This document shows, in pieces, positions 7,010 through 39,325 of a stretch of DNA of 64,000 nucleotides. The position numbers and the translations under genes were made by a program. The notes below the pieces were generated by a model. That model was not told the DNA's origin, did not search any database, and saw only the letters and a program-made list of their open reading frames with translations. The stretch spans positions 2,571-66,570 of the forward strand of contig JAGVYE010000001.1 in assembly GCA_018303445.1 (NCBI GenBank), given 5' to 3'. The DNA is from Candidatus Woesearchaeota archaeon. GTDB lineage: Archaea; Nanobdellota; Nanobdellia; Woesearchaeales; GW2011-AR9. Position 1 is the first letter of the stretch, and each line of letters opens with the position of its first letter.

Positions 7010-8254
7010 ATGGTGTTTACAAAATTCCTGGAAAAAATAGCGCTTTTGGCAAGATTAAGCGTAAAGGAGCGAAAGCTCCTTTCTACACCAGATCACGTTT
7101 GGAAAGCAGTACTTACGGTCAATGGGAAAAAGTATCCTGCCTATCGAATTCAGTTTAATAATGCTCGTGGACCATACAAAGGGGGAGTACGGTATCATCC
7201 TGAAGTTACAGAAGAAGAAGTAACGGACCTCGCGTTCTGGATGACCTTAAAAACAGCAGTCGCGGATCTGCCTTTCGGTGGTGGAAAGGGGGGAGTGGAA
7301 GTCGACCCGAAAGAATTGTCTGGAGGAGAATTAGAAGAGCTTAGTCGGGCGTATATCCGTGCTTTTTACAAACATCTTGGACCAGAGGTTGATATTCCTG
7401 CACCTGATGTTTATACAACCCCGCAAATAATGGCGTGGATGAGGGATGAATATGAGAAGCTTACGGGGAAAGCTGCTCCAGCAGTCATCACTGGAAAACC
7501 TTTGGAGAACGGGGGCTCGAAGGTTCGGGATATCGCTACGGCACTGGGAGGGGTTTATATCTTGGAAGAACTGCTGCGCCAGGTTTCAATTAATACTAAA
7601 ACGGTGGCCATTCAGGGTTTTGGCAATGCGGGCTATAATGCGGCAAAATTCTTACATAAACAGGGATATGTAGTAGTCGCGGTTTCTGATTCTAAAGGAG
7701 GGATCTATAAGCAGGAAGGAATAGTTCCGGAGAAAGTCTGGGAAATAAAAGAAAAAGAAGGAAGGTTGGGATGTTATGATGTCGGAACAGGAAGTTCCAT
7801 TAATGAGATTAAGAAAGATGGTTCTTGTAAGATTATCAGCAATGAGGACTTGTTGGAACTTCCTGTTGACATTCTTATCCCCGCGGCGTTAGGCGGCGTT
7901 ATAACAAAAGAAAATGCGGGAAACGTAAAGGCAAAAATAATTTTAGAATTAGCTAACGGTCCTACTACTGCGGAAGCAGATGAGATTCTTCATAAGAAAG
8001 GAATTCTTGTTATTCCAGATATTCTGGCAAATAGCGGAGGGGTGACGGTTTCGTATTTTGAGTGGGTACAGAATCTTCGTCATGAATCATGGGATGAAAA
8101 AACAGTCCAAGAGAAGCTGCAGAAGAAAATAACTGATGCCTTTCGATTGCTCTGGAAAGAGTTTAAGAAAAAAGATCAGAGCCTGAGGACTACAGCTTAT
8201 ATTTTTGCGATACGCAAAATTTTAGAAGCAGAGAAAAATAGAGGAAGGATTTAG
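7010..8254 (+). CDS. gdhA: Glutamate dehydrogenase
   Basis: 'LPFGGGKGGVEVDPKELS' catalytic Lys/Gly motif. NAD(P)-binding 'QGFGNAGYNAAKFL'. 414 aa. Confidence 0.85.
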   Translation: MVFTKFLEKIALLARLSVKERKLLSTPDHVWKAVLTVNGKKYPAYRIQFNNARGPYKGGVRYHPEVTEEEVTDLAFWMTLKTAVADLPFGGGKGGVEVDPKELSGGELEELSRAYIRAFYKHLGPEVDIPAPDVYTTPQIMAWMRDEYEKLTGKAAPAVITGKPLENGGSKVRDIATALGGVYILEELLRQVSINTKTVAIQGFGNAGYNAAKFLHKQGYVVVAVSDSKGGIYKQEGIVPEKVWEIKEKEGRLGCYDVGTGSSINEIKKDGSCKIISNEDLLELPVDILIPAALGGVITKENAGNVKAKIILELANGPTTAEADEILHKKGILVIPDILANSGGVTVSYFEWVQNLRHESWDEKTVQEKLQKKITDAFRLLWKEFKKKDQSLRTTAYIFAIRKILEAEKNRGRI

Positions 8255-8757
8255 ATGCTTCCTCTTCATTCTTATTGTCAGACTGATACAATCGCAAAAC
8301 CACGATTATTAATATTAGCTATAGAATTACCTGAACTTCAAACAGATTTAAGATGGTCATTATTTTCACGCCTCTGCTCAAGGGTGGCTGGTGTAGAAGT
8401 AGCTGGATCAGTAGCTTCACCATATTCTATAAATTCTTTATTGAATTGGGCCGTATTAGGAAGAAGTACAAGTCAAGACCACTTTTTAGGGGGGTGTTCA
8501 AAGAGGATGCGAATTATACGTAGGGATAAGAACTCCAGAAAAAGAATATGATGGCCGAAGAAGTGAAGATGGTAGATTTGATCTATATCAATTAGGTGAA
8601 CGTGGGTTTGCTTTAGCTACACAAAATAACATCCCTGCGATTCTATTAGCTCATTATGACCAACAGACCATTTGCGACTTTGTAAGGAATAATACGAGAT
8701 AAATTTTTATCTCTTTTTGGAGAGAAGTTTACCCATAGTTTTATATAAACAACTTTA

Positions 8758-9810
8758 TTGTTTTTAAGTATGCTCGCGGCATTTACTTTATTGAAAACAG
8801 CGCAAAAAGTGAAAGAGTTTCTCTTTCAAAAGAAAGCTTTACATACAGAGTATCTTCCACAAAAGCAGTTAGACCATATTTATTTTCCCATGGCGAAAAA
8901 AATTCGCGTTCCTTCTGCGCAGATCGTGGACACGAAGTTCTCGTTTGAGAAGAAACTACGGAGTCTTAGAATTGAAGATTTGTTGGAAGGGAAATTGACA
9001 AAGAAAGAATTCACACTCTTGCCACGTTCTCAGGAGATAATAGGTTCGATCATGATTCTGGAAATTCTTCCAGAATTGGAAAAAAAAGAAAAAATTATTG
9101 CTGAAGCCTATCTTACGCTTACGAAGCACATCCAAACAGTCGTTAAGAAGAAAGAAGTTCACTCTGGTGTTTTCAGGACACGGAGAGTACAAATTATCGC
9201 TGGCAAAAGGACGAAAGAAACCATCCATTATGAGAATGGAATAAAACTTAAAGTTCATTTGGAAAAAACATATTTTACGTCTCGTTTAGCAAATGAGCGG
9301 TTACGTATTGCCAAGCTAGTACAGAAAGATGAAGAAGTTCTGGTGATGTTCTCTGGGGTAGCGCCGTATCCTTTAGTTATTGCTAAAAACTCTGAAGCAA
9401 AGAAAGTGTATGGGATAGAGATAAATCCTTTTGCTCATCAGTATGCCTTAGAAAATATTGCTCTTAATAAATTAGAAGATAAAGTTGTGATTTATGAAGG
9501 CGATGTGCGAAATCTTCTCCCTAAACTAAGAAAGAAGTTTGACCGTATCGTGATGCCATTACCTAAAACTGGGGAAGAATTTTTATATTTGGTTTTACCA
9601 AGGTTAAAACATAATGGTTTTATTCATCTCTATGCTTTTTTAGAAGAAGGAAAAATTGAAGCAGAGAGAAAACAAATCCTTGAAAGAGGCAGGGTTCTAG
9701 GGTATAGTTTGGAATGCAGGACAATAGTTACATGCGGTCAATTCTCACCAAGTACGTTTCGTGTCTGTTTCGATTTAAAAATGAGAGAAAAGAGAAAAAA
9801 GAAGATTTAA
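8758..9810 (+). CDS. trm5: tRNA (guanine37-N1)-methyltransferase Trm5 / Taw2-like SAM methyltransferase
   Basis: 'EVLVMFSGVAPYPLVIAKNSEAKKVYGIEINPFAHQYALENIALNKLEDKVVIYEGDVRNLL' is a Met-10+ class I methyltransferase core. Confidence 0.6.
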   Translation: MFLSMLAAFTLLKTAQKVKEFLFQKKALHTEYLPQKQLDHIYFPMAKKIRVPSAQIVDTKFSFEKKLRSLRIEDLLEGKLTKKEFTLLPRSQEIIGSIMILEILPELEKKEKIIAEAYLTLTKHIQTVVKKKEVHSGVFRTRRVQIIAGKRTKETIHYENGIKLKVHLEKTYFTSRLANERLRIAKLVQKDEEVLVMFSGVAPYPLVIAKNSEAKKVYGIEINPFAHQYALENIALNKLEDKVVIYEGDVRNLLPKLRKKFDRIVMPLPKTGEEFLYLVLPRLKHNGFIHLYAFLEEGKIEAERKQILERGRVLGYSLECRTIVTCGQFSPSTFRVCFDLKMREKRKKKI

Positions 9811-28538: not shown

Positions 28539-29915
28539 ATGAGAACATTTGATTTAATTGTTATTGGTTCTGGTGGGGGGGCGAATCTTGTTTCTTTAGC
28601 GTATGAGTTAGGTTATACCGTAGCTTTAATAGAAGAGTGGAAGTTAGGAGGGACTTGTCTGAACCGTGGCTGTATTCCTTCGAAGATGCTGATCCATCCT
28701 GCAAATGTCTCGCGAATAATCCAAGAAGCGGAAAAGTTTTACATTAAAGCCTATCAAAAATCAATTAATTTCCCACAAATTCTTAAGCGGATTAATAAAA
28801 CGACGGACACGGAGTCAAATGATATTAAAGAATGGTATCAGGAAAAGAGAAAAGGATTGGCTTTTTATTCCGGCCATGCTCGTTTTATTTCGAATAGAAT
28901 AATAGAAGTGCAAGGTGAAAAGATAACTGCGGAAAAAATTGTTATTGCCACCGGAGCACGATCTTCCATTCCTCTTATTCCAGGATTAAAAGGAACGCCC
29001 TATCTCACAAGTATGGAAGCATTGCGGTCGCGGCTTTTACCAAAAAAACTTTTCGTTATCGGCGGGGGATACATTGCCTGCGAGCTTGGTCATGCCTATG
29101 GCGCTTTGGGATCGGAAGTTCATTTACTTGTTCGAGACAGGGCTTTATTGACACGGGAAGACGGAGAAATAAGTAAGAATTTTACAGAAGCCTTTTCAAG
29201 GAGATATCAAGTGCATTTTTGGACCGTGACGGAAAAAGTAGAGTACAAAAAGAAAAAGTTTACTCTTTATCTTAAAGATGCTGAAGGTAAAAAATCAAAG
29301 ATAAGTGGCGATGGATTACTGATGGCTACAGGTGTAATGCCGAATAGTGATAAATTAGGGTTAGAGAATACGAACATTTCTGTAAATGAAAAGGGCTTTA
29401 TTAAAGTAAATGAGTATTTAGAAACAGCAGTGCCGGGGGTATATTCTCTAGGTGATGTGGTGGGGAACTATATGTTCAGACATAGTGTGAATTTTGAAAG
29501 TCAGTTTTTATTTCAAGCTTTATTCGGTAAGCAACGAAAACCAATTCAATATCCTCCCATGCCCCATGCGGTGTTTACAAATCCGGAAGTAGGATCTGTA
29601 GGAATGACGGAAGAAGAGTTGCAGAAGAAGAATATCTCTTATGTGGTGGGGAAAAATGAATATCGAAAATCAGCCATGGGAGAAGCACGCTTAAGTTCAA
29701 AGGAAGAATTTGTTAAATTGTTATTTCACAAACAAACAAGAAAATTATTGGGAGCACATATCCTGGGAGAGGAAGCGTCAACGATGATTCATCAGTTAAT
29801 CTATGCGATGACGTTTGGCGCAACAGCTGAGGATTTATTAAAAATGATTTATATTCATCCGGCTTTGCCGGAGGTCATACAAAAGGCAGCGGAGAAGGCA
29901 AGCGATGGATTTTAG
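28539..29915 (+). CDS. Flavoprotein disulfide reductase (dihydrolipoamide dehydrogenase / glutathione-reductase class)
   Basis: 'LIVIGSGGGA' FAD motif and redox-active 'GGTCLNRGCIPSK'. 458 aa. Confidence 0.7.
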   Translation: MRTFDLIVIGSGGGANLVSLAYELGYTVALIEEWKLGGTCLNRGCIPSKMLIHPANVSRIIQEAEKFYIKAYQKSINFPQILKRINKTTDTESNDIKEWYQEKRKGLAFYSGHARFISNRIIEVQGEKITAEKIVIATGARSSIPLIPGLKGTPYLTSMEALRSRLLPKKLFVIGGGYIACELGHAYGALGSEVHLLVRDRALLTREDGEISKNFTEAFSRRYQVHFWTVTEKVEYKKKKFTLYLKDAEGKKSKISGDGLLMATGVMPNSDKLGLENTNISVNEKGFIKVNEYLETAVPGVYSLGDVVGNYMFRHSVNFESQFLFQALFGKQRKPIQYPPMPHAVFTNPEVGSVGMTEEELQKKNISYVVGKNEYRKSAMGEARLSSKEEFVKLLFHKQTRKLLGAHILGEEASTMIHQLIYAMTFGATAEDLLKMIYIHPALPEVIQKAAEKASDGF

Positions 29916-31392: not shown

Positions 31393-32424
31393 TTACCTAT
31401 ACCTTCTCATCGTTTTCCATTCGATAATAGTTTTCATAATTCCAGGAATAAGACCGGTAAAGACAAAATCTCTATAAATAAAAATTCCATTGTATTTTCC
31501 TAAGCTAATAACCATTGGTTTCGGCTCTGGATTATACATTAGTAATGGTTCTCCTTGCTCTAAATGATAAATGTTTTTGACAACTAATCTCGCTTGTTTC
31601 TCAGCACTCTGGGCTGTTTTTTCTTCTTTAATATTATTTATATCGCCAGCGGCGAAGATATTTTTATGGCCTTGCACTTGGAGATATTCATTGACGCACA
31701 GAAAGTTCTTTGAATTTAATTCTATTGAGCAATATGAAGCCAGATGCTCATAGTTCGGCATGATACCGGTACATAGAAAGGCAATATCGGGATGGAGTTT
31801 TTTCCCTGTTCTAGTTTTATATACGCCGCTTTCATTTTCTATTATCCTTTCATTGAAGATAAGTTGTACCTTTCTTTTTTCCAACCATTGTTTTGCATAC
31901 CTCTGCGCTTTTTGTGGAGTTCGTTCCATTAATTCTGGCTTAGTATGAATAAGAGTAATTTCTTTCTCAGGATAATGAGTACTAATTTCCGCCGCTAATT
32001 CGACACCAACTATTCCTCCGCCAATAATAAGAACGTCTTGAGCATGCCTTAATTTTTGCGCATAAAGGCGAAGTTCCTGCCCTCTGCTTGCTACAACCCT
32101 GTTTGTTTCTTTAATGGGAGTTTCATAGCGTGATCCAGAGGCGATTATTAGATAGTCGTAGGAAAATTCTTGTTGGTTTGTGGACACGGAAGAATCTTTG
32201 ATTTTTATAATGGAGTCACGCACAATATGGGCTTTATGAAGATAGTGCGTATGCAGTACTTGGATTTTTTTCACATGCTGTGGTTCTACCAAGGTGCGAA
32301 GAATGGAAGGAGTAAATTCAAAATAATCTTTAGTGTCAATTAATGTTACATCAAAGTCTCTTTCTAAGTTCCTGGCTGCGACTGCTCCGGCAAACCCGCC
32401 CCCAATTATAACTACTTTTTTCAT
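31393..32424 (-). CDS. Type II NADH dehydrogenase / FAD-dependent pyridine nucleotide-disulfide oxidoreductase (NDH-2 or SQR-like)
   Basis: 'KVVIIGGGFAGAVAA' and a second Rossmann 'VLIIGGGIVGVELA'. Confidence 0.6.
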   Translation of the reverse strand: MKKVVIIGGGFAGAVAARNLERDFDVTLIDTKDYFEFTPSILRTLVEPQHVKKIQVLHTHYLHKAHIVRDSIIKIKDSSVSTNQQEFSYDYLIIASGSRYETPIKETNRVVASRGQELRLYAQKLRHAQDVLIIGGGIVGVELAAEISTHYPEKEITLIHTKPELMERTPQKAQRYAKQWLEKRKVQLIFNERIIENESGVYKTRTGKKLHPDIAFLCTGIMPNYEHLASYCSIELNSKNFLCVNEYLQVQGHKNIFAAGDINNIKEEKTAQSAEKQARLVVKNIYHLEQGEPLLMYNPEPKPMVISLGKYNGIFIYRDFVFTGLIPGIMKTIIEWKTMRRYR

Positions 32425-32483: not shown

Positions 32484-32756
32484 CTATCCTTCTTCTCCAC
32501 GCAGAATTCTGAGTGTTTTATCATAATCCTGTGCCGCATCTCTGTCAATGGTTCGGTAATAGGCATTCAAGCGCTGAAATTCACGTACTGCAATGCCAAA
32601 AGGAGCGTAATTAAGAATTTCATCAAGCTGTCGTTCAATAACTGTGGGGTCAATCTCTTCATTACTGATAAGGTTATCTACGGTTAACTGTATGCGTGGT
32701 ACTTGCCTTTGAGCAATTTTTCTCGCCCTTTCAATTGACCTAAAAATATCCGTCAT
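32484..32756 (-). CDS. Hypothetical protein
   Basis: 90-aa ORF. Confidence 0.3.
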   Translation of the reverse strand: MTDIFRSIERARKIAQRQVPRIQLTVDNLISNEEIDPTVIERQLDEILNYAPFGIAVREFQRLNAYYRTIDRDAAQDYDKTLRILRGEEG

Positions 32757-32918
32757 ACTTTTATCATTATTTTCTTTTTGGAGATAAAAGTATTTGACTA
32801 AAATTTTCTCAAAATGAGAGTTTCAATTATTCTTTTTAATTATTGGTGCAGATACTTTTTTATAGGAAGTTTCTTTTCTTGTTTCATAGAAAATATTCAA
32901 TATCAACATTTTTTGGCT

Positions 32919-33395
32919 ATGAAAGAAAAAAATCAAGCAATGATTTTGAAAGTAATGCTCGTTCTGGGAATACTCGGTCTTATAACGGCGGCATACCAAA
33001 CGGTTGAATATTACTTTCTGAGAAGCAGCTTCTGTGATTTTAGCCCTAATTTTTCCTGTTCCATCGTCACTCAATCCTCTTACGGAGAATTTCCCTTCCT
33101 CTCTGGGATAGCGGTGTCTCTTTATGCTGTTCTTTGGTGGCTGGTTCTTTTAGGCATCATTTCTTTAATGCTCTGGAAGAAAAAGGAATGGTTCTTGTAT
33201 CTTAAGGTCTGGATGATCTTAGGGATCATGAGCGCTCTTTATTTCCTTTTCGTCGAGCTCTATTTACTTCCCCAAGAAATTGGACTGATCGTGATTTGTC
33301 CTTTTTGCACAATACAACATCTGTTGATCGCAACTCTTTTGGTCATGGGATTTTTTTTCACAAGGAAAAATTTATTAATGACAGATTCTTCCTAG
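32919..33395 (+). CDS. Vitamin K epoxide reductase (VKOR) family protein, paralog 2 (start moved to internal Met)
   Basis: 'FCDFSPNFSCSIV' loop Cys pair and 'ICPFCTIQHL' CxxC. The ORF-track start at 32814 adds 35 implausible residues. Confidence 0.55.
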   Translation: MKEKNQAMILKVMLVLGILGLITAAYQTVEYYFLRSSFCDFSPNFSCSIVTQSSYGEFPFLSGIAVSLYAVLWWLVLLGIISLMLWKKKEWFLYLKVWMILGIMSALYFLFVELYLLPQEIGLIVICPFCTIQHLLIATLLVMGFFFTRKNLLMTDSS

Positions 33396-35495: not shown

Positions 35496-35849
35496 TTGGT
35501 CATAACCTTTTTATATTCAAATGGTCTTTATTTCTACATCGTCAGACTCAACAAACATGATACTTATGTAAACGCTTTGTCTGAGGTTTTACAGTCACAG
35601 TATGATATTATTCTTACCAATGTTCCTCTTTATTCAAAGAGACATCGTTTAATTGCAGAAATTGACATTTTAGCATTATTAGGAAGAGAATATGATGTTT
35701 ATGAAGTAAAATGCAGTCATCGCATCACTAAAGCAAGAAAACAGTTATCTCGAATTCGAAAATTATTAACCTCAATACGGCATACATACTTCTATTGCGG
35801 GTCTTCCAATGAACTCGTTTTAGTCCGAAACTATGTTAAATCTCGTTAG
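35496..35849 (+). CDS. YraN/UPF0102-like PD-(D/E)xK endonuclease-fold protein (Hjc-related)
   Basis: 'RLIAEIDILALLGREYDVYEVKCSHR' matches the UPF0102 core 'GEIDLIA...vfVEVKtR'. Confidence 0.45.
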   Translation: MVITFLYSNGLYFYIVRLNKHDTYVNALSEVLQSQYDIILTNVPLYSKRHRLIAEIDILALLGREYDVYEVKCSHRITKARKQLSRIRKLLTSIRHTYFYCGSSNELVLVRNYVKSR

Positions 35850-35917
35850 TAAAAACTAGAAAATTTATTATCGAGAAGAAATAAGTTTATATTCTCGAAT
35901 TCGTTCTACTATTTTTT

Positions 35918-37012
35918 ATGGAAAGAGGTTATTCTTTAGCTGATCTTTTGATAAGAAGTACGCTTGGAGAGGATGGTATTCTGCGAGTTGAAAATTTAGA
36001 AGTAACCTCTGAAATGGCGGGGGTTGTTAAAAGACCTGAAAATTATCCTCAAGCTCAATTTCTGGGAACAGGAACTGTTTTTCCAGTAGTTAAAGACCCA
36101 ACACCATTCCAACTGTTTTCTGCATTGATTGATACCAGAGCCGTTTATGTTGATGACGTTTTGGTGGATGAAATTACTTATGCCAAAGAGCATAATAAAA
36201 TTATTTCTGTCACGCCTTCAGGGAGATGTGGTTATGAAACAACTGAGAATGGAGTTGTAATCAGAAAAGAATTTCCTACAGGATCGCCATTAGTAGTAAC
36301 GAGCGATTCTTTTCCTGTATCGCTTTTTGACGTATCAGGATTACGACCAGATACGGCTGAGTTATTGAGGTTAGATTTAGATTTTTATAAACAACTTCCC
36401 ATCTCCTCTGTAGGTTATCGCCGATTTCCCATGCGTGATAACCTCTGCTCTAATTTTTGGAATTATCATCCTGATACCTCCTCTGAGGCGGATGGCACGC
36501 AAGAGCGTTTATTAGTAAAAGCTAAGCGCGAGTTTGCACTCCCCCCGGAGGAACCTTCAGGTTTGTTTATTTGCGGGGAAAAAGGGGTAGGAAAAAGTCA
36601 CATCGCCATGGCTTTAGCTAAACGATGGTGGTATTTACATGGATTAAAGCCAAATTATCATTTTTCTAAAGATTCGGTACAAATAGATGATGTTAAAAAC
36701 CAAATTTCTGAAAGACAAATCTTTGTTCTTGATGATATCAAAACTTTAGAAAAAAACTCTTTTGAAAGGGCTTTCTTAGATATATTGTTAATCTTTGGTC
36801 AGGAAAAGGGAGGAATAAAAATATATTTGACAAGTAATACTAGTTCGGCAGAATTAAAGAGGCAATATCTTCATGATAGAGGAGAAAATAAAAGTAATAA
36901 AGGAGACGCCATGAGGTATGAAGATCGTTTTGAAGAAATTTTTGAATGTATTGATGTTAAAGGAAAAAGTTATAGGCTGAGGAGAAAAAGGGAACTTCTT
37001 CAGAAAGTATAA
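35918..37012 (+). CDS. IstB/DnaC-like AAA+ ATPase with uncharacterised ~210-aa N-terminal domain
   Basis: Walker A 'CGEKGVGKSHIAMALAKRW' (IstB/DnaC signature GxxGxGK[ST]HLAxA). Walker B 'IFVLDDIK'. Sensor-1 'LTSNTS'. Confidence 0.45.
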   Translation: MERGYSLADLLIRSTLGEDGILRVENLEVTSEMAGVVKRPENYPQAQFLGTGTVFPVVKDPTPFQLFSALIDTRAVYVDDVLVDEITYAKEHNKIISVTPSGRCGYETTENGVVIRKEFPTGSPLVVTSDSFPVSLFDVSGLRPDTAELLRLDLDFYKQLPISSVGYRRFPMRDNLCSNFWNYHPDTSSEADGTQERLLVKAKREFALPPEEPSGLFICGEKGVGKSHIAMALAKRWWYLHGLKPNYHFSKDSVQIDDVKNQISERQIFVLDDIKTLEKNSFERAFLDILLIFGQEKGGIKIYLTSNTSSAELKRQYLHDRGENKSNKGDAMRYEDRFEEIFECIDVKGKSYRLRRKRELLQKV

Positions 37013-38152: not shown

Positions 38153-38830
38153 ATGAGTTTGACGCCCGTGTCAAGAAATCTGGAAAGAATTAGTGAAGGA
38201 GGAAATCTTCTCAGGAATCTGGAGTTGCTTGATGATGCCACAACGTGGAAAACGGCTGAGGAAGCCTTTGCCGCCTCGAAACAGGGAGTTTCTATTGAAG
38301 ATATTTGTACTAATAATCTGGGGATTTACAGGCTTGTTGATAATAAACCTGTTTTTAATCTGCTCGGTAGAGAAAGCAATCCTTTCATGGAGGAGAGATT
38401 TAGGAGAAGCTTATATCAAGGTATTTTAAATACCGATTTTTTTTCTCCTTCAGGTGAAATGAAAGAGTATCTTCTGGTAGTCCTAAGATCGGGAGCTTCA
38501 ACTTATATTAATTATTCTGAATTGAGATGCAAAAGCGATTCTATACGTAAACTTTCTTTATATGTTGAAACCAATGCCAAAAATACACTGGAAGAAAAAA
38601 AACTGTTTCACGCGGTTTATGGTTCTAAAATAGGCGCTGGGAAAAGAGTTTATCTTTTAGCGCCGGAAATAGTTATAACTCATTTATCTCCTGATCAGAA
38701 AGAGGATTTAGTTGTGCGTGTTTGTTGTTTTGATGATGAAGAAAATTTCTTGGCGAATAGTAGGAGCATATCCGGTTATCGAAGTTCCATAGTTGGCGTA
38801 CGCCGTGTTGCAGATAACAATTCTTTTTAA
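38153..38830 (+). CDS. Hypothetical protein
   Basis: 225-aa ORF, no recognisable motifs. Confidence 0.3.
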   Translation: MSLTPVSRNLERISEGGNLLRNLELLDDATTWKTAEEAFAASKQGVSIEDICTNNLGIYRLVDNKPVFNLLGRESNPFMEERFRRSLYQGILNTDFFSPSGEMKEYLLVVLRSGASTYINYSELRCKSDSIRKLSLYVETNAKNTLEEKKLFHAVYGSKIGAGKRVYLLAPEIVITHLSPDQKEDLVVRVCCFDDEENFLANSRSISGYRSSIVGVRRVADNNSF

Positions 38831-38988: not shown

Positions 38989-39147
38989 CTATGCTTTTCC
39001 GAGAATTCTGAACATGGTTGTGCCGCAGCTAGGACATTTGCCTTTCAGGGCTTTGCGTTTAACGCCGCCTTTTCCATTCATGCTTACTTCTTTAGCACTC
39101 GCTATCTGTTTTTTTGCTTTGCACTTAACACAGTATCCTTCTGTCAT
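38989..39147 (-). CDS. Unannotated 52-aa zinc-ribbon protein (MTEGYCVKCKAKKQIASAKEVSMNGKGGVKRKALKGKCPSCGTTMFRILGKA)
   Basis: CxxC...CxxC. Strong Shine-Dalgarno 'GAGGTGtttactATG' on the minus strand. Missed by the ORF track (below 60 aa). Confidence 0.45.
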   Translation of the reverse strand: MTEGYCVKCKAKKQIASAKEVSMNGKGGVKRKALKGKCPSCGTTMFRILGKA

Positions 39148-39325
39148 AGTAAACACCTCATCTTTTCATATCATTAAAAGAACGTAAGTGATCTCACGCC
39201 CCTGGAATGGAAAAAGAAGCGATTTTGCTTTTAAAACTTTCGTAATTTTATATTGTAATAAAGCAGAATCTAGTCGACTTTTTGTTATTGGTGGATGGTG
39301 ATCTTATCTAAGAAAAAGAGTTAAA

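What the first reader, a model, noticed from the sequence alone, without database searches (positions are those of the whole stretch)
35496..37012. Two-gene module: YraN/Hjc-like PD-(D/E)xK nuclease followed by an IstB/DnaC-type AAA+ ATPase with a novel N-terminal domain
The 117-aa protein carries the UPF0102/YraN nuclease core ('AEIDILAL...YEVK'). Sixty-eight bp downstream a 364-aa protein combines an uncharacterised ~210-aa N-terminal domain with an IstB/DnaC-clade AAA+ core (Walker A 'GEKGVGKSHIAMALA', Walker B 'VLDDI', sensor 'TSNTS'). IstB-type ATPases normally partner an IstA transposase or act as helicase loaders, and neither context is present. A small nuclease paired with a helper AAA+ ATPase is a recurrent layout of defence islands and of mobile-element replication modules. 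This pairing and this domain fusion do not correspond to any system I can name.
Basis: partly seen in the sequence, partly recalled or inferred. Interest (0 to 1): 0.6.

Follow-up and report, generated by a model that had tools for sequence, protein, structure and literature searches.

The report
Two unrelated neighbours, not a module
Both genes are real, a small DNA-cutting enzyme and a DnaC-like ATPase, but in more than 150 comparable loci from other genomes they are never neighbours, so this is a chance adjacency on an ordinary DPANN archaeal chromosome rather than a new two-gene system.

Summary
ORFs at 35496-35849 (117 aa) and 35918-37012 (364 aa) exist, 68 nt apart, with every quoted motif.

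- None of 83 homologous nuclease loci (up to 8 kb of flank each side where the contig allowed) encodes a relative of the ATPase.
- None of 75 loci fetched through ATPase relatives encodes the nuclease.
- In one Woesearchaeota genome (L093) the nuclease is followed directly by the 2-hydroxyacid dehydrogenase gene. That is the window's order minus the ATPase gene.

The 364-aa protein is an intact but divergent member of a sparse family of solo chromosomal DnaC/DnaI-type AAA+ ATPases. Most members sit in bacterial contexts, a few in DPANN archaea. The best solved relative is Aquifex DnaC. No IstA, inverted repeats, integrase, tRNA or defence genes are nearby, and the flanks are housekeeping genes.

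Only residues ~1-104 (at most 134) are orphan sequence, not ~210. They show good coding statistics.

Interest is low to moderate: a DnaC-like ATPase in an archaeon, with an orphan N-terminal extension.

The parts
35496..35849 (+). Gene for a 117-aa minimal PD-(D/E)xK nuclease. It belongs to a ~100-aa family found across Woesearchaeota/Nanoarchaeota. Catalytic candidates are E55 (35658-35660), D57 (35664-35666), E70 (35703-35705) and K72 (35709-35711). C73, S74, R76, K79 and Q83 are also invariant.
35850..35917 (+). 68-nt spacer. It holds a TATA-like TTTATAT at 35886-35892, ending 25 nt before the ATG. That position would fit a separate archaeal promoter and a near-leaderless mRNA for the ATPase gene; this is inference only.
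   Evidence: Sequence read. The bacterial-type promoter and terminator scan was not above shuffles.
35918..36229 (+). Codons 1-104 of the 364-aa protein: the orphan N-terminal extension with no detectable homologue anywhere.
   Evidence: No hit in 1.84 billion representative proteins apart from the protein's own C-terminal fragment. Pfam returned nothing at E<=10. tblastn against all fetched loci gave E>0.6. In-frame coding score is 0.46 against an off-frame mean of -0.66.
36230..36547 (+). Codons ~105-210: the N-terminal region shared with the DnaC-like family. It includes LDLDFY (152-157) and the DnaC-type pre-AAA+ motif DNLCSNFWNYHP...Q (174-195).
   Evidence: Alignment A2. BLASTP to P0047 covers residues 135-353, E 4e-28. 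phmmer to Aquifex DnaC 3ECC starts at residue 179.
36548..37012 (+). AAA+ core of the DnaC/DnaI/IstB clade. Walker A G220-S227 lies at 36575-36598, Walker B I268-D273 at 36719-36736 and sensor I T305-N307 at 36830-36838. The conserved RYxDR (R333, D336, R337) lies at 36914-36928. R353 of GKSYR, at 36974-36976, is read as sensor II by analogy with DnaC/IstB.
   Evidence: Pfam, NCBIfam and PHROG matches. Family profile against PDB. 35 of 42 family-conserved positions are kept, including all ATPase motifs.

Best explanation
These are two independent chromosomal genes of a DPANN (Woesearchaeota-like) archaeon that are adjacent only in this lineage.

Gene 1 encodes a ~100-aa PD-(D/E)xK endonuclease that is conserved across Woesearchaeota/Nanoarchaeota. 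By inference it is a small structure-specific DNA nuclease working in recombination or repair, in the manner of Hjc or YraN, and probably a homodimer.

Gene 2 encodes a divergent, lineage-specific member of a sparse family of solo DnaC/DnaI-type (initiator-clade) AAA+ ATPases. Most of the 37 family loci fetched lie in bacterial gene contexts. The gene was most likely acquired horizontally and landed between the nuclease gene and the 2-hydroxyacid dehydrogenase gene. All ATPase motifs are intact. By analogy with DnaC/DnaI it would act as an ATP-driven switch that oligomerises on DNA and delivers or remodels a partner protein. The orphan ~100-130-aa N-terminal extension would serve as the partner-binding adaptor.

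What is shown: the fold and family assignments, the absence of co-occurrence, and the gene order in L093. What is inferred: the biochemical activities, the partner, the direction of transfer, and separate transcription.
For: No co-occurrence:
- An HMM of the ATPase family finds 0 hits in 83 nuclease loci, each with up to 8 kb of flank per side where the contig allowed. tblastn with the 364-aa protein also finds none.
- The nuclease HMM finds 0 hits in 38 + 37 loci fetched through ATPase relatives.
- Neighbours of the nuclease vary. The largest neighbour cluster covers 11 of 83 loci.

Gene order:
- In L093 the nuclease (7977-8285) is followed directly by 2-Hacid_dh (8388-9413) on the same strand. 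This is the window's order minus the ATPase gene.

Nuclease:
- E55, D57, E70 and K72 are invariant.
- At least 159 species genomes carry the family.
- It lies between radA and radB in L007 and L012. By my reading of the representative sequences, which were not run against Pfam, a long Hef-like helicase-nuclease lies within 4 genes in 6 loci and a RadA-like recombinase in 4.

ATPase:
- The family profile matches Aquifex DnaC 3ECC at 4e-19, DnaI at 4e-14, IstB of IS5376 at 9e-12 and E. coli DnaC at 3e-10.
- The query alone matches 3ECC at 6e-6 and PHROG 'DnaC-like helicase loader' at 7.6e-11.
- 35 of 42 family-conserved positions are kept.
- Relatives are solo genes among housekeeping genes in a Woesearchaeota chromosome, a marine archaeon and bacteria.
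- Codon usage resembles the host's.
- dnaC/dnaI-type genes have been domesticated repeatedly in bacteria (PMC5109545 abstract).
Against: - The two genes share a strand and are only 68 nt apart, so co-transcription cannot be excluded without expression data.
- All seven copies of the locus (the window plus L001-L006) are 100% identical. Selection on either gene or on the pairing could therefore not be measured.
- Archaea are not known to use DnaB-type helicases (my background knowledge), so the DnaC analogy has no obvious partner here.
- The link between the nuclease and recombination genes rests on a few, possibly related, genomes.
- The direction of transfer is inferred from where relatives were found, not from a tree.
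Confidence: 0.75

Rival explanations
1. The pair is a lineage-specific functional module, for defence or mobile-element replication. The AAA+ ATPase would regulate or target the adjacent PD-(D/E)xK nuclease.
For: The genes share a strand and are 68 nt apart. Nuclease + ATPase is a common layout in defence systems (background knowledge). PADLOC gives marginal hits: CARF_PDDEXK at E 0.006 and PtuA at E 0.0012.
Against: There is no co-occurrence in 83 nuclease loci or in 75 ATPase-family loci. The nuclease family is widespread on its own in at least 159 species genomes. The PADLOC hits cover only the generic fold or the P-loop. The flanks are transketolase, 2-Hacid_dh, ValRS, IMPDH and RFC. A TATA-like box sits in the spacer. 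Codon usage is host-like.
Confidence: 0.07
2. The 364-aa gene is the surviving IstB helper of a decayed IS21-family insertion sequence.
For: Pfam IstB_IS21 matches residues 216-359 at E 4e-4. NCBIfam IS21_help_AAA matches at E 6.6e-6. The C-terminal GKSYR resembles the IstB motif GESYR (my recollection). 30 of 31 family members touch PF01695.
Against: All scores are below the curated cut-offs: 20.3 against 24.1 bits, and 26 against 200 bits. No IstA gene or remnant lies nearby. No terminal inverted repeats or flanking direct repeats stand out from short, likely chance matches. DnaC and DnaI score better than IstB. Relatives are solo genes in housekeeping contexts. No second copy exists in the window.
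Confidence: 0.05
3. The 364-aa gene is a remnant of an integrated virus or plasmid replication module, that is, a phage-type helicase loader.
For: The best profile hits are PHROG 'DnaC-like helicase loader' families at 7.6e-11 and 6.6e-9. The PMC5109545 abstract reports repeated domestication of dnaC/dnaI in bacteria; that the source was phage is my recollection of that paper. The gene is absent from the nuclease-to-2-Hacid_dh junction in L093. An orphan N-terminal domain is typical of fast-evolving mobile genes (background knowledge).
Against: The window holds no tRNA, and none of the roughly 16 ORFs annotated matched an integrase, capsid or replicase family; most of its ORFs were not scanned. 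GC content and codon usage are host-like. Matches in IMG/VR are only generic, 21-31% identity over the AAA+ core apart from one 42-residue stretch at 50%.
Confidence: 0.1
4. The 364-aa protein is a divergent archaeal Orc1/Cdc6 initiator.
For: It is an AAA+ protein of the initiator/loader clade in an archaeon. It gives weak DnaA and Hda hits.
Against: No Cdc6/Orc1 family match and no C-terminal winged-helix domain appear in Pfam or NCBIfam at E<=1. The protein ends 11 residues after R353 of GKSYR. The best solved relatives are DnaC, DnaI and IstB.
Confidence: 0.01

Closest known systems
Bacterial/phage DnaC-DnaI helicase loaders (Aquifex aeolicus DnaC 3ECC, Geobacillus DnaI 2W58, E. coli DnaC 6QEL)
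   Same: The AAA+ core has Walker A GxxGxGKS, Walker B hhhhDD, sensor I TSN, the conserved RYxDR and a C-terminal GxSxR. It also carries the pre-AAA+ motif N-x-C-S-x-x-x-N-Y-x-P...Q, also seen in Aquifex DnaC as ANLDTYHPKNVSQ. The overall layout matches: a variable N-terminal part followed by the AAA+ core, with no C-terminal DNA-binding domain.
   Different: Identity to these loaders is low (Aquifex DnaC is matched only at E 6e-6) and falls far below NCBIfam equivalog cut-offs (30 against 228 bits). The stretch between Walker A and B is about 10-11 residues shorter than in Aquifex DnaC (gaps), so the initiator-specific insert is reduced. The N-terminal 104-134 aa resemble no helicase-binding domain. 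The host is an archaeon, where no DnaB-type partner is expected (background knowledge).
IstB helper ATPase of IS21-family elements (IS5376 IstB, 5BQ5/8Q3W)
   Same: It is in the same AAA+ clade, has a similar C-terminal GxSYR motif and a similar core size.
   Different: There is no IstA partner and no element ends. Scores are below family cut-offs, and DnaC/DnaI score higher.
Hjc/Hje Holliday-junction resolvases, YraN/UPF0102 and NERD (small PD-(D/E)xK nucleases)

Membership tests
PD-(D/E)xK nuclease superfamily (117-aa protein) | Restriction-endonuclease-like alpha/beta core carrying the acidic-acidic-Lys catalytic motif (D ... (D/E)xK). | tested here: met
UPF0102 / YraN (PF02021) | Sequence match to the family model at or above its curated threshold. 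| tested here: not met
Archaeal Hjc (PF01870) | Sequence match to Hjc; a homodimer that cleaves four-way junctions. | tested here: not met
NERD (PF08378) | Sequence match at or above the gathering score. | tested here: inconclusive
   The window protein scores 16.0 bits against a 22.1 cut-off. 18 of 42 relatives match at E<=0.1, best 7.9e-6.
DnaC/DnaI/IstB clade of AAA+ ATPases (364-aa protein) | AAA+ core with Walker A, Walker B, sensor I, arginine finger and sensor II, with closest similarity to DnaC/DnaI/IstB. | tested here: met
   All motifs are present. The family profile matches 3ECC at 4e-19, DnaI at 4e-14 and IstB at 9e-12. The query alone matches 3ECC at 6e-6. PHROG DnaC-like loader matches at 7.6e-11.
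Bona fide DnaC/DnaI helicase loader | Equivalog-level sequence match. | tested here: not met
   NCBIfam DnaI PRK08939 scores 30.3 bits against a 228 cut-off.
Bona fide DnaC/DnaI helicase loader | N-terminal helicase-binding domain. | tested here: not met
   The N-terminal 150-161 aa match nothing. PDB sequence matches to the query begin only at residue 179.
Bona fide DnaC/DnaI helicase loader | A DnaB-type helicase partner in the genome. | not testable with these tools
   Only 64 kb of the genome is available, so presence of a DnaB-type helicase could not be checked.
IS21-family IstB | Match above the family threshold. | tested here: not met
   PF01695 scores 20.3 against 24.1 bits. NF038214 scores 26 against 200 bits.
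IS21-family IstB | Adjacent upstream istA transposase gene. | tested here: not met
   The upstream genes are the nuclease and a split transketolase. No ORF nearby resembles a transposase.
IS21-family IstB | Terminal inverted repeats bounding the element. | tested here: not met
   No bounding inverted repeats were found beyond short, imperfect matches.
Orc1/Cdc6 | AAA+ core plus a C-terminal winged-helix domain, with a Cdc6/Orc family match. | tested here: not met
   No such Pfam or NCBIfam hit appears at E<=1. The protein ends right after sensor II.
Known anti-phage defence systems (PADLOC-DB 2.0) | Significant matches of the components to models of one system, and a conserved gene pair. | tested here: not met
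   Only marginal hits were found, to unrelated systems: CARF_PDDEXK at E 0.006, PtuA at E 0.0012 over the P-loop, and DrmD at E 0.014. The pair is not conserved.

The most novel reading that the evidence does not exclude
A bacterial or phage-type DnaC-like loader ATPase has been captured by a DPANN archaeon and fitted with a new ~100-130-aa N-terminal adaptor. It would now load or regulate an archaeal partner, for example MCM or another helicase, or possibly the adjacent conserved nuclease. That would be a DnaC-type loader operating in an Orc/MCM-type replication or repair system.
Probability: 0.1. Interest if true: 0.55.

Novelty: new member of a known kind. Interest (0 to 1): 0.22.

Why it matters
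As proposed, a new nuclease-ATPase system, it does not hold up, so it should not be pursued as a defence or mobile-element module.

Two modest points remain.
1. Woesearchaeota/Nanoarchaeota share an uncharacterised ~100-aa PD-(D/E)xK nuclease family that sometimes lies beside radA/radB. It is a candidate for a structure-specific recombination nuclease in these reduced genomes.
2. DnaC-like AAA+ ATPases occur as solo chromosomal genes in a few DPANN archaea, which lack the bacterial helicase these loaders normally serve. This copy has an orphan N-terminal extension.

Either point could be tested biochemically. Neither is very surprising on present evidence.

Tried and rejected
- The k-mer-indexed homologue search with the 364-aa protein found nothing. 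A repeat with the family alignment returned only 7 proteins because candidates were capped.
- AF2 on the 364-aa protein without an alignment failed (pLDDT 32). Nothing structural is claimed for its N-terminal part. The second structure job went to the nuclease.
- The 311-aa gene next to 2-Hacid_dh in L008 was checked as a possible diverged ATPase. It is an unrelated protein that looks secreted.
- A profile search of the PDB with the nuclease family found no significant sequence relative.
- dN/dS across strains was impossible because all copies are identical.
- The viral-contig scan gave only generic DnaC/IstB-like hits.
It worked with the tighter alignment A3.
- The afdb50 fold library was unavailable.
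- Repeat, tRNA and Rfam scans found no element boundaries or RNA genes.
- The sigma-70 promoter and terminator scan was not above shuffles and does not suit archaea in any case.
- Literature searches found no paper on DnaC-like proteins in DPANN. None of the ten papers listed for DPANN + Hjc addresses the question by title or abstract.

Full report
OBSERVATION

Both ORFs exist as described: 35496-35849 (+, 117 aa, TTG start) and 35918-37012 (+, 364 aa, ATG), separated by 68 nt. The quoted motifs are all present. A codon-usage log-odds model was trained on 36 long ORFs of the window. It gives in-frame scores of 0.18 for the nuclease and 0.46, 0.27 and 0.26 for codons 1-100, 101-210 and 211-364 of the ATPase gene. 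Genes score 0.30 +/- 0.08 and off-frame sequence scores -0.66 +/- 0.26. The whole 364-codon ORF, including its orphan N-terminal part, therefore looks like genuine native coding sequence. The same two genes are found 100% identical on contigs from six other samples.

CONTEXT

The window is an ordinary stretch of a DPANN archaeal chromosome.
- Upstream lie a PD40 beta-propeller protein, a pyridine-nucleotide oxidoreductase, a VKOR homologue and a split transketolase.
- Downstream lie a 2-hydroxyacid dehydrogenase, a 225-aa orphan, a DUF5679 zinc ribbon, ValRS, an IMPDH-like gene (my reading of the translation; it was not scanned), an RFC-type clamp-loader subunit, an isochorismatase-family protein, a class-II tRNA synthetase, CTP synthase and SecDF.
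- No tRNA or Rfam family is present, and none of the ORFs annotated matched an integrase or transposase.
- GC content is unremarkable across the pair.
- Repeats around the pair are short and imperfect, and nothing bounds an element.

THE 117-AA PROTEIN

It has 41 homologues at E<=1e-13 besides its own cluster. Most are 95-120 aa, and those that carry a source name come from Woesearchaeota, Nanoarchaeota or Nanoarchaeia. A scan of one genome per species found relatives in 159 stretches. The best was 62% identical.

The alignment shows E55, D57, E70, V71, K72, C73, S74, R76, K79, A80 and Q83 as invariant. This is an ExD...ExK PD-(D/E)xK signature followed by a conserved basic helix.

Sequence models give only weak matches. 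For the window protein, NERD scores E 0.018. Across the family, NERD hits 18 of 42 members, UPF0102 hits 7 and Hjc hits 5. A profile search of the PDB finds nothing.

The protein cannot be filed in YraN, Hjc or NERD by their own thresholds.

THE 364-AA PROTEIN

Pfam, NCBIfam and PHROGs all match only residues ~180-360, and all to the DnaC/DnaI/IstB/DnaA group:
- PHROG 'DnaC-like helicase loader' at 7.6e-11
- NCBIfam DnaI at 2.4e-7
- NCBIfam Hda at 3.5e-7
- NCBIfam IS21 helper at 6.6e-6
- Pfam IstB_IS21 at 4e-4

The NCBIfam and IstB_IS21 scores are below their curated cut-offs (PHROGs has none); the only Pfam family above its cut-off is nSTAND3 (27.4 against 27.2 bits), over the P-loop segment 216-274.

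A full HMMER scan of 1.84 billion representative proteins found only its own C-terminal fragment plus 72 weak relatives at 28-39% identity. All of these align to residues ~115/135-356.

The single-domain relatives are mostly 240-290 aa and form a distinct family (alignment A2). Its conserved motifs are LDxxF..NPxLPLENxC..LxNYxPxNxSQ, GxxGVGK[ST]H, DDLNSxYG, GGRxFVTSN and RYxDR..MFK.L.V.G.S.R..AW. The family profile matches the following solved structures:
- Aquifex DnaC 3ECC at 4e-19
- DnaI at 4e-14
- IstB of IS5376 at 9e-12
- E. coli DnaC at 3e-10
- DnaA at about 1e-7

The query alone matches 3ECC at 6e-6 from residue 179 onward. It keeps 35 of 42 positions that are conserved in at least 80% of the family, including every ATPase motif. 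It is divergent but intact.

The segment between Walker A and Walker B is about 10-11 residues shorter than in Aquifex DnaC (gaps).

Residues ~105-210 align with the family's own N-terminal region. Only residues 1-104, at most 1-134, are unique. This part has no match in Pfam at E<=10 and none in any fetched locus. AF2 without an alignment failed, so nothing is claimed about its fold.

IS THE PAIR A MODULE?

This was tested in both directions.
- Forward: 83 loci containing a nuclease homologue, with up to 8 kb on each side, were searched with an HMM of the ATPase family and with tblastn of the 364-aa protein. There were no hits.
- Reverse: 38 loci fetched through ATPase relatives (a Woesearchaeota chromosome, a bacterial contig, marine archaeal contigs and 32 viral contigs) and 37 family loci (34 from a metagenome scan, three of the earlier ones re-searched) contain no nuclease homologue.

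The nuclease's neighbours vary. The largest neighbour cluster covers 11 of 83 loci. By my reading of the representative sequences (not Pfam-checked), ScpA-like genes occur in 8 loci, a DEAD-box helicase in 8, a Hef-like helicase-nuclease in 6 and RadA in 4. In L007 and L012 the nuclease lies between radA and radB.

The ATPase family's neighbours also vary and are mostly bacterial housekeeping genes. None of the neighbours annotated by Pfam, and none of the ten recurrent neighbour clusters I read, is IstA, a helicase or a nuclease.

In Woesearchaeota locus L093 the nuclease gene is followed directly, on the same strand, by the 2-hydroxyacid dehydrogenase gene. That is the window's arrangement without the ATPase gene. 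The simplest reading is that the ATPase gene was inserted between two genes that were already neighbours. Loss in L093 is the alternative.

The spacer holds a TATA-like TTTATAT ending 25 nt before the ATG. This would suit a separate, near-leaderless archaeal transcript, but it is inference only.

PADLOC returns only marginal fold-level or P-loop hits to unrelated systems.

MOST LIKELY FUNCTION

For the nuclease, the shown facts are the fold, the catalytic residues and the wide, conserved distribution in Woesearchaeota/Nanoarchaeota genomes. The inference is a small, probably dimeric, structure-specific DNA endonuclease used in recombination or repair.

For the ATPase, the shown facts are membership of the DnaC/DnaI/IstB clade, intact motifs, solo chromosomal status, lineage restriction and an orphan N-terminal extension. 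The inference is an ATP-dependent DNA-bound switch or loader whose N-terminal extension binds an unknown partner, acquired horizontally. dnaC/dnaI-type genes have been domesticated repeatedly in bacteria (PMC5109545 abstract), which gives a precedent.

RIVALS

- A lineage-specific nuclease-ATPase system: about 0.07.
- A decayed IS21 element: about 0.05.
- A remnant virus or plasmid replication module: about 0.10.
- Orc1/Cdc6: about 0.01.

The evidence for and against each is given in the rival entries.

VERDICT

The domain calls are largely right, but the two-gene-module interpretation is not supported. What remains is a new, divergent member of the DnaC-like AAA+ clade in a DPANN archaeon, sitting next to a member of an uncharacterised but widespread small PD-(D/E)xK family. 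Interest is low to moderate.

Noticed in passing
P0044 (1241 aa, named Thermoproteota archaeon MFC1754627.1), P0045 (1100 aa), P0046, P0048-P0050; Several relatives are giant proteins with 2-5 tandem DnaC/IstB-like AAA+ modules in one polypeptide. Some also carry DnaJ and TPR domains. Covalently linked loader-type AAA+ repeats are unusual.
   Followed up: partly
Family members P0056, P0060, P0076 (C-terminal UVR motif) and P0053, P0066, P0069, P0077 (N-termini that look like signal peptides); Some solo DnaC-like family members end in a UvrB/UvrC-type UVR motif (Pfam E 3e-9). Others start with hydrophobic leaders that resemble signal peptides, which is odd for an ATPase that acts on DNA.
   Followed up: no
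L007 3992-6032 and L012 2369-5956: In two Nanoarchaeia/Woesearchaeota genomes the small nuclease gene lies between radA and a radB-like gene. A Hef-like helicase-nuclease gene (DEAD, Helicase_C, ERCC4 and HHH domains) also lies at the 5' end of L007. This hints at a recombination role for the nuclease family.
   Followed up: partly
window 35712-35714 (C73) and 35796-35798 (C101) of the 117-aa protein: Two cysteines are invariant or nearly so across the nuclease family (EVKCS and FYCG). They could form a disulfide or a metal site. Their positions in the model were not examined.
   Followed up: no
window 38153-38830 (+, 225 aa) and 32484-32756 (-, 90 aa): These two ORFs have no significant family match. 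The 225-aa ORF found nothing in Pfam, NCBIfam, PHROGs or PADLOC, and the 90-aa ORF found nothing in Pfam. Both are called as genes on all contigs of this population.
   Followed up: partly
window 32814-33395 (+) with 31393-32424 (-) and 28539-29915 (+): A VKOR (vitamin K epoxide reductase family) membrane protein lies close to two pyridine-nucleotide disulfide oxidoreductases. This looks like a possible disulfide-bond or quinone redox cluster in a DPANN archaeon.
   Followed up: no
L004 864-1828 and 3912-4981 (scaffold ANAN16-1_SAMN03842440 scaffold_9834): In this sample's scaffold the oxidoreductase and the transketolase C-terminal genes are each split into two ORFs, while the nuclease and ATPase genes are identical to the window. 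The cause could be assembly frameshifts or real pseudogenisation.
   Followed up: no
window 35748-35758 and 35893-35903: An exact 11-nt repeat TCTCGAATTCG, containing the palindrome CGAATTCG, occurs once inside the 3' part of the nuclease gene and once in the spacer just after the TATA-like box. It may be chance.
   Followed up: no
window 38989-39156 (-): A 55-aa DUF5679 zinc-ribbon protein (Pfam E 1.6e-11) lies between the 225-aa orphan and ValRS.
   Followed up: no
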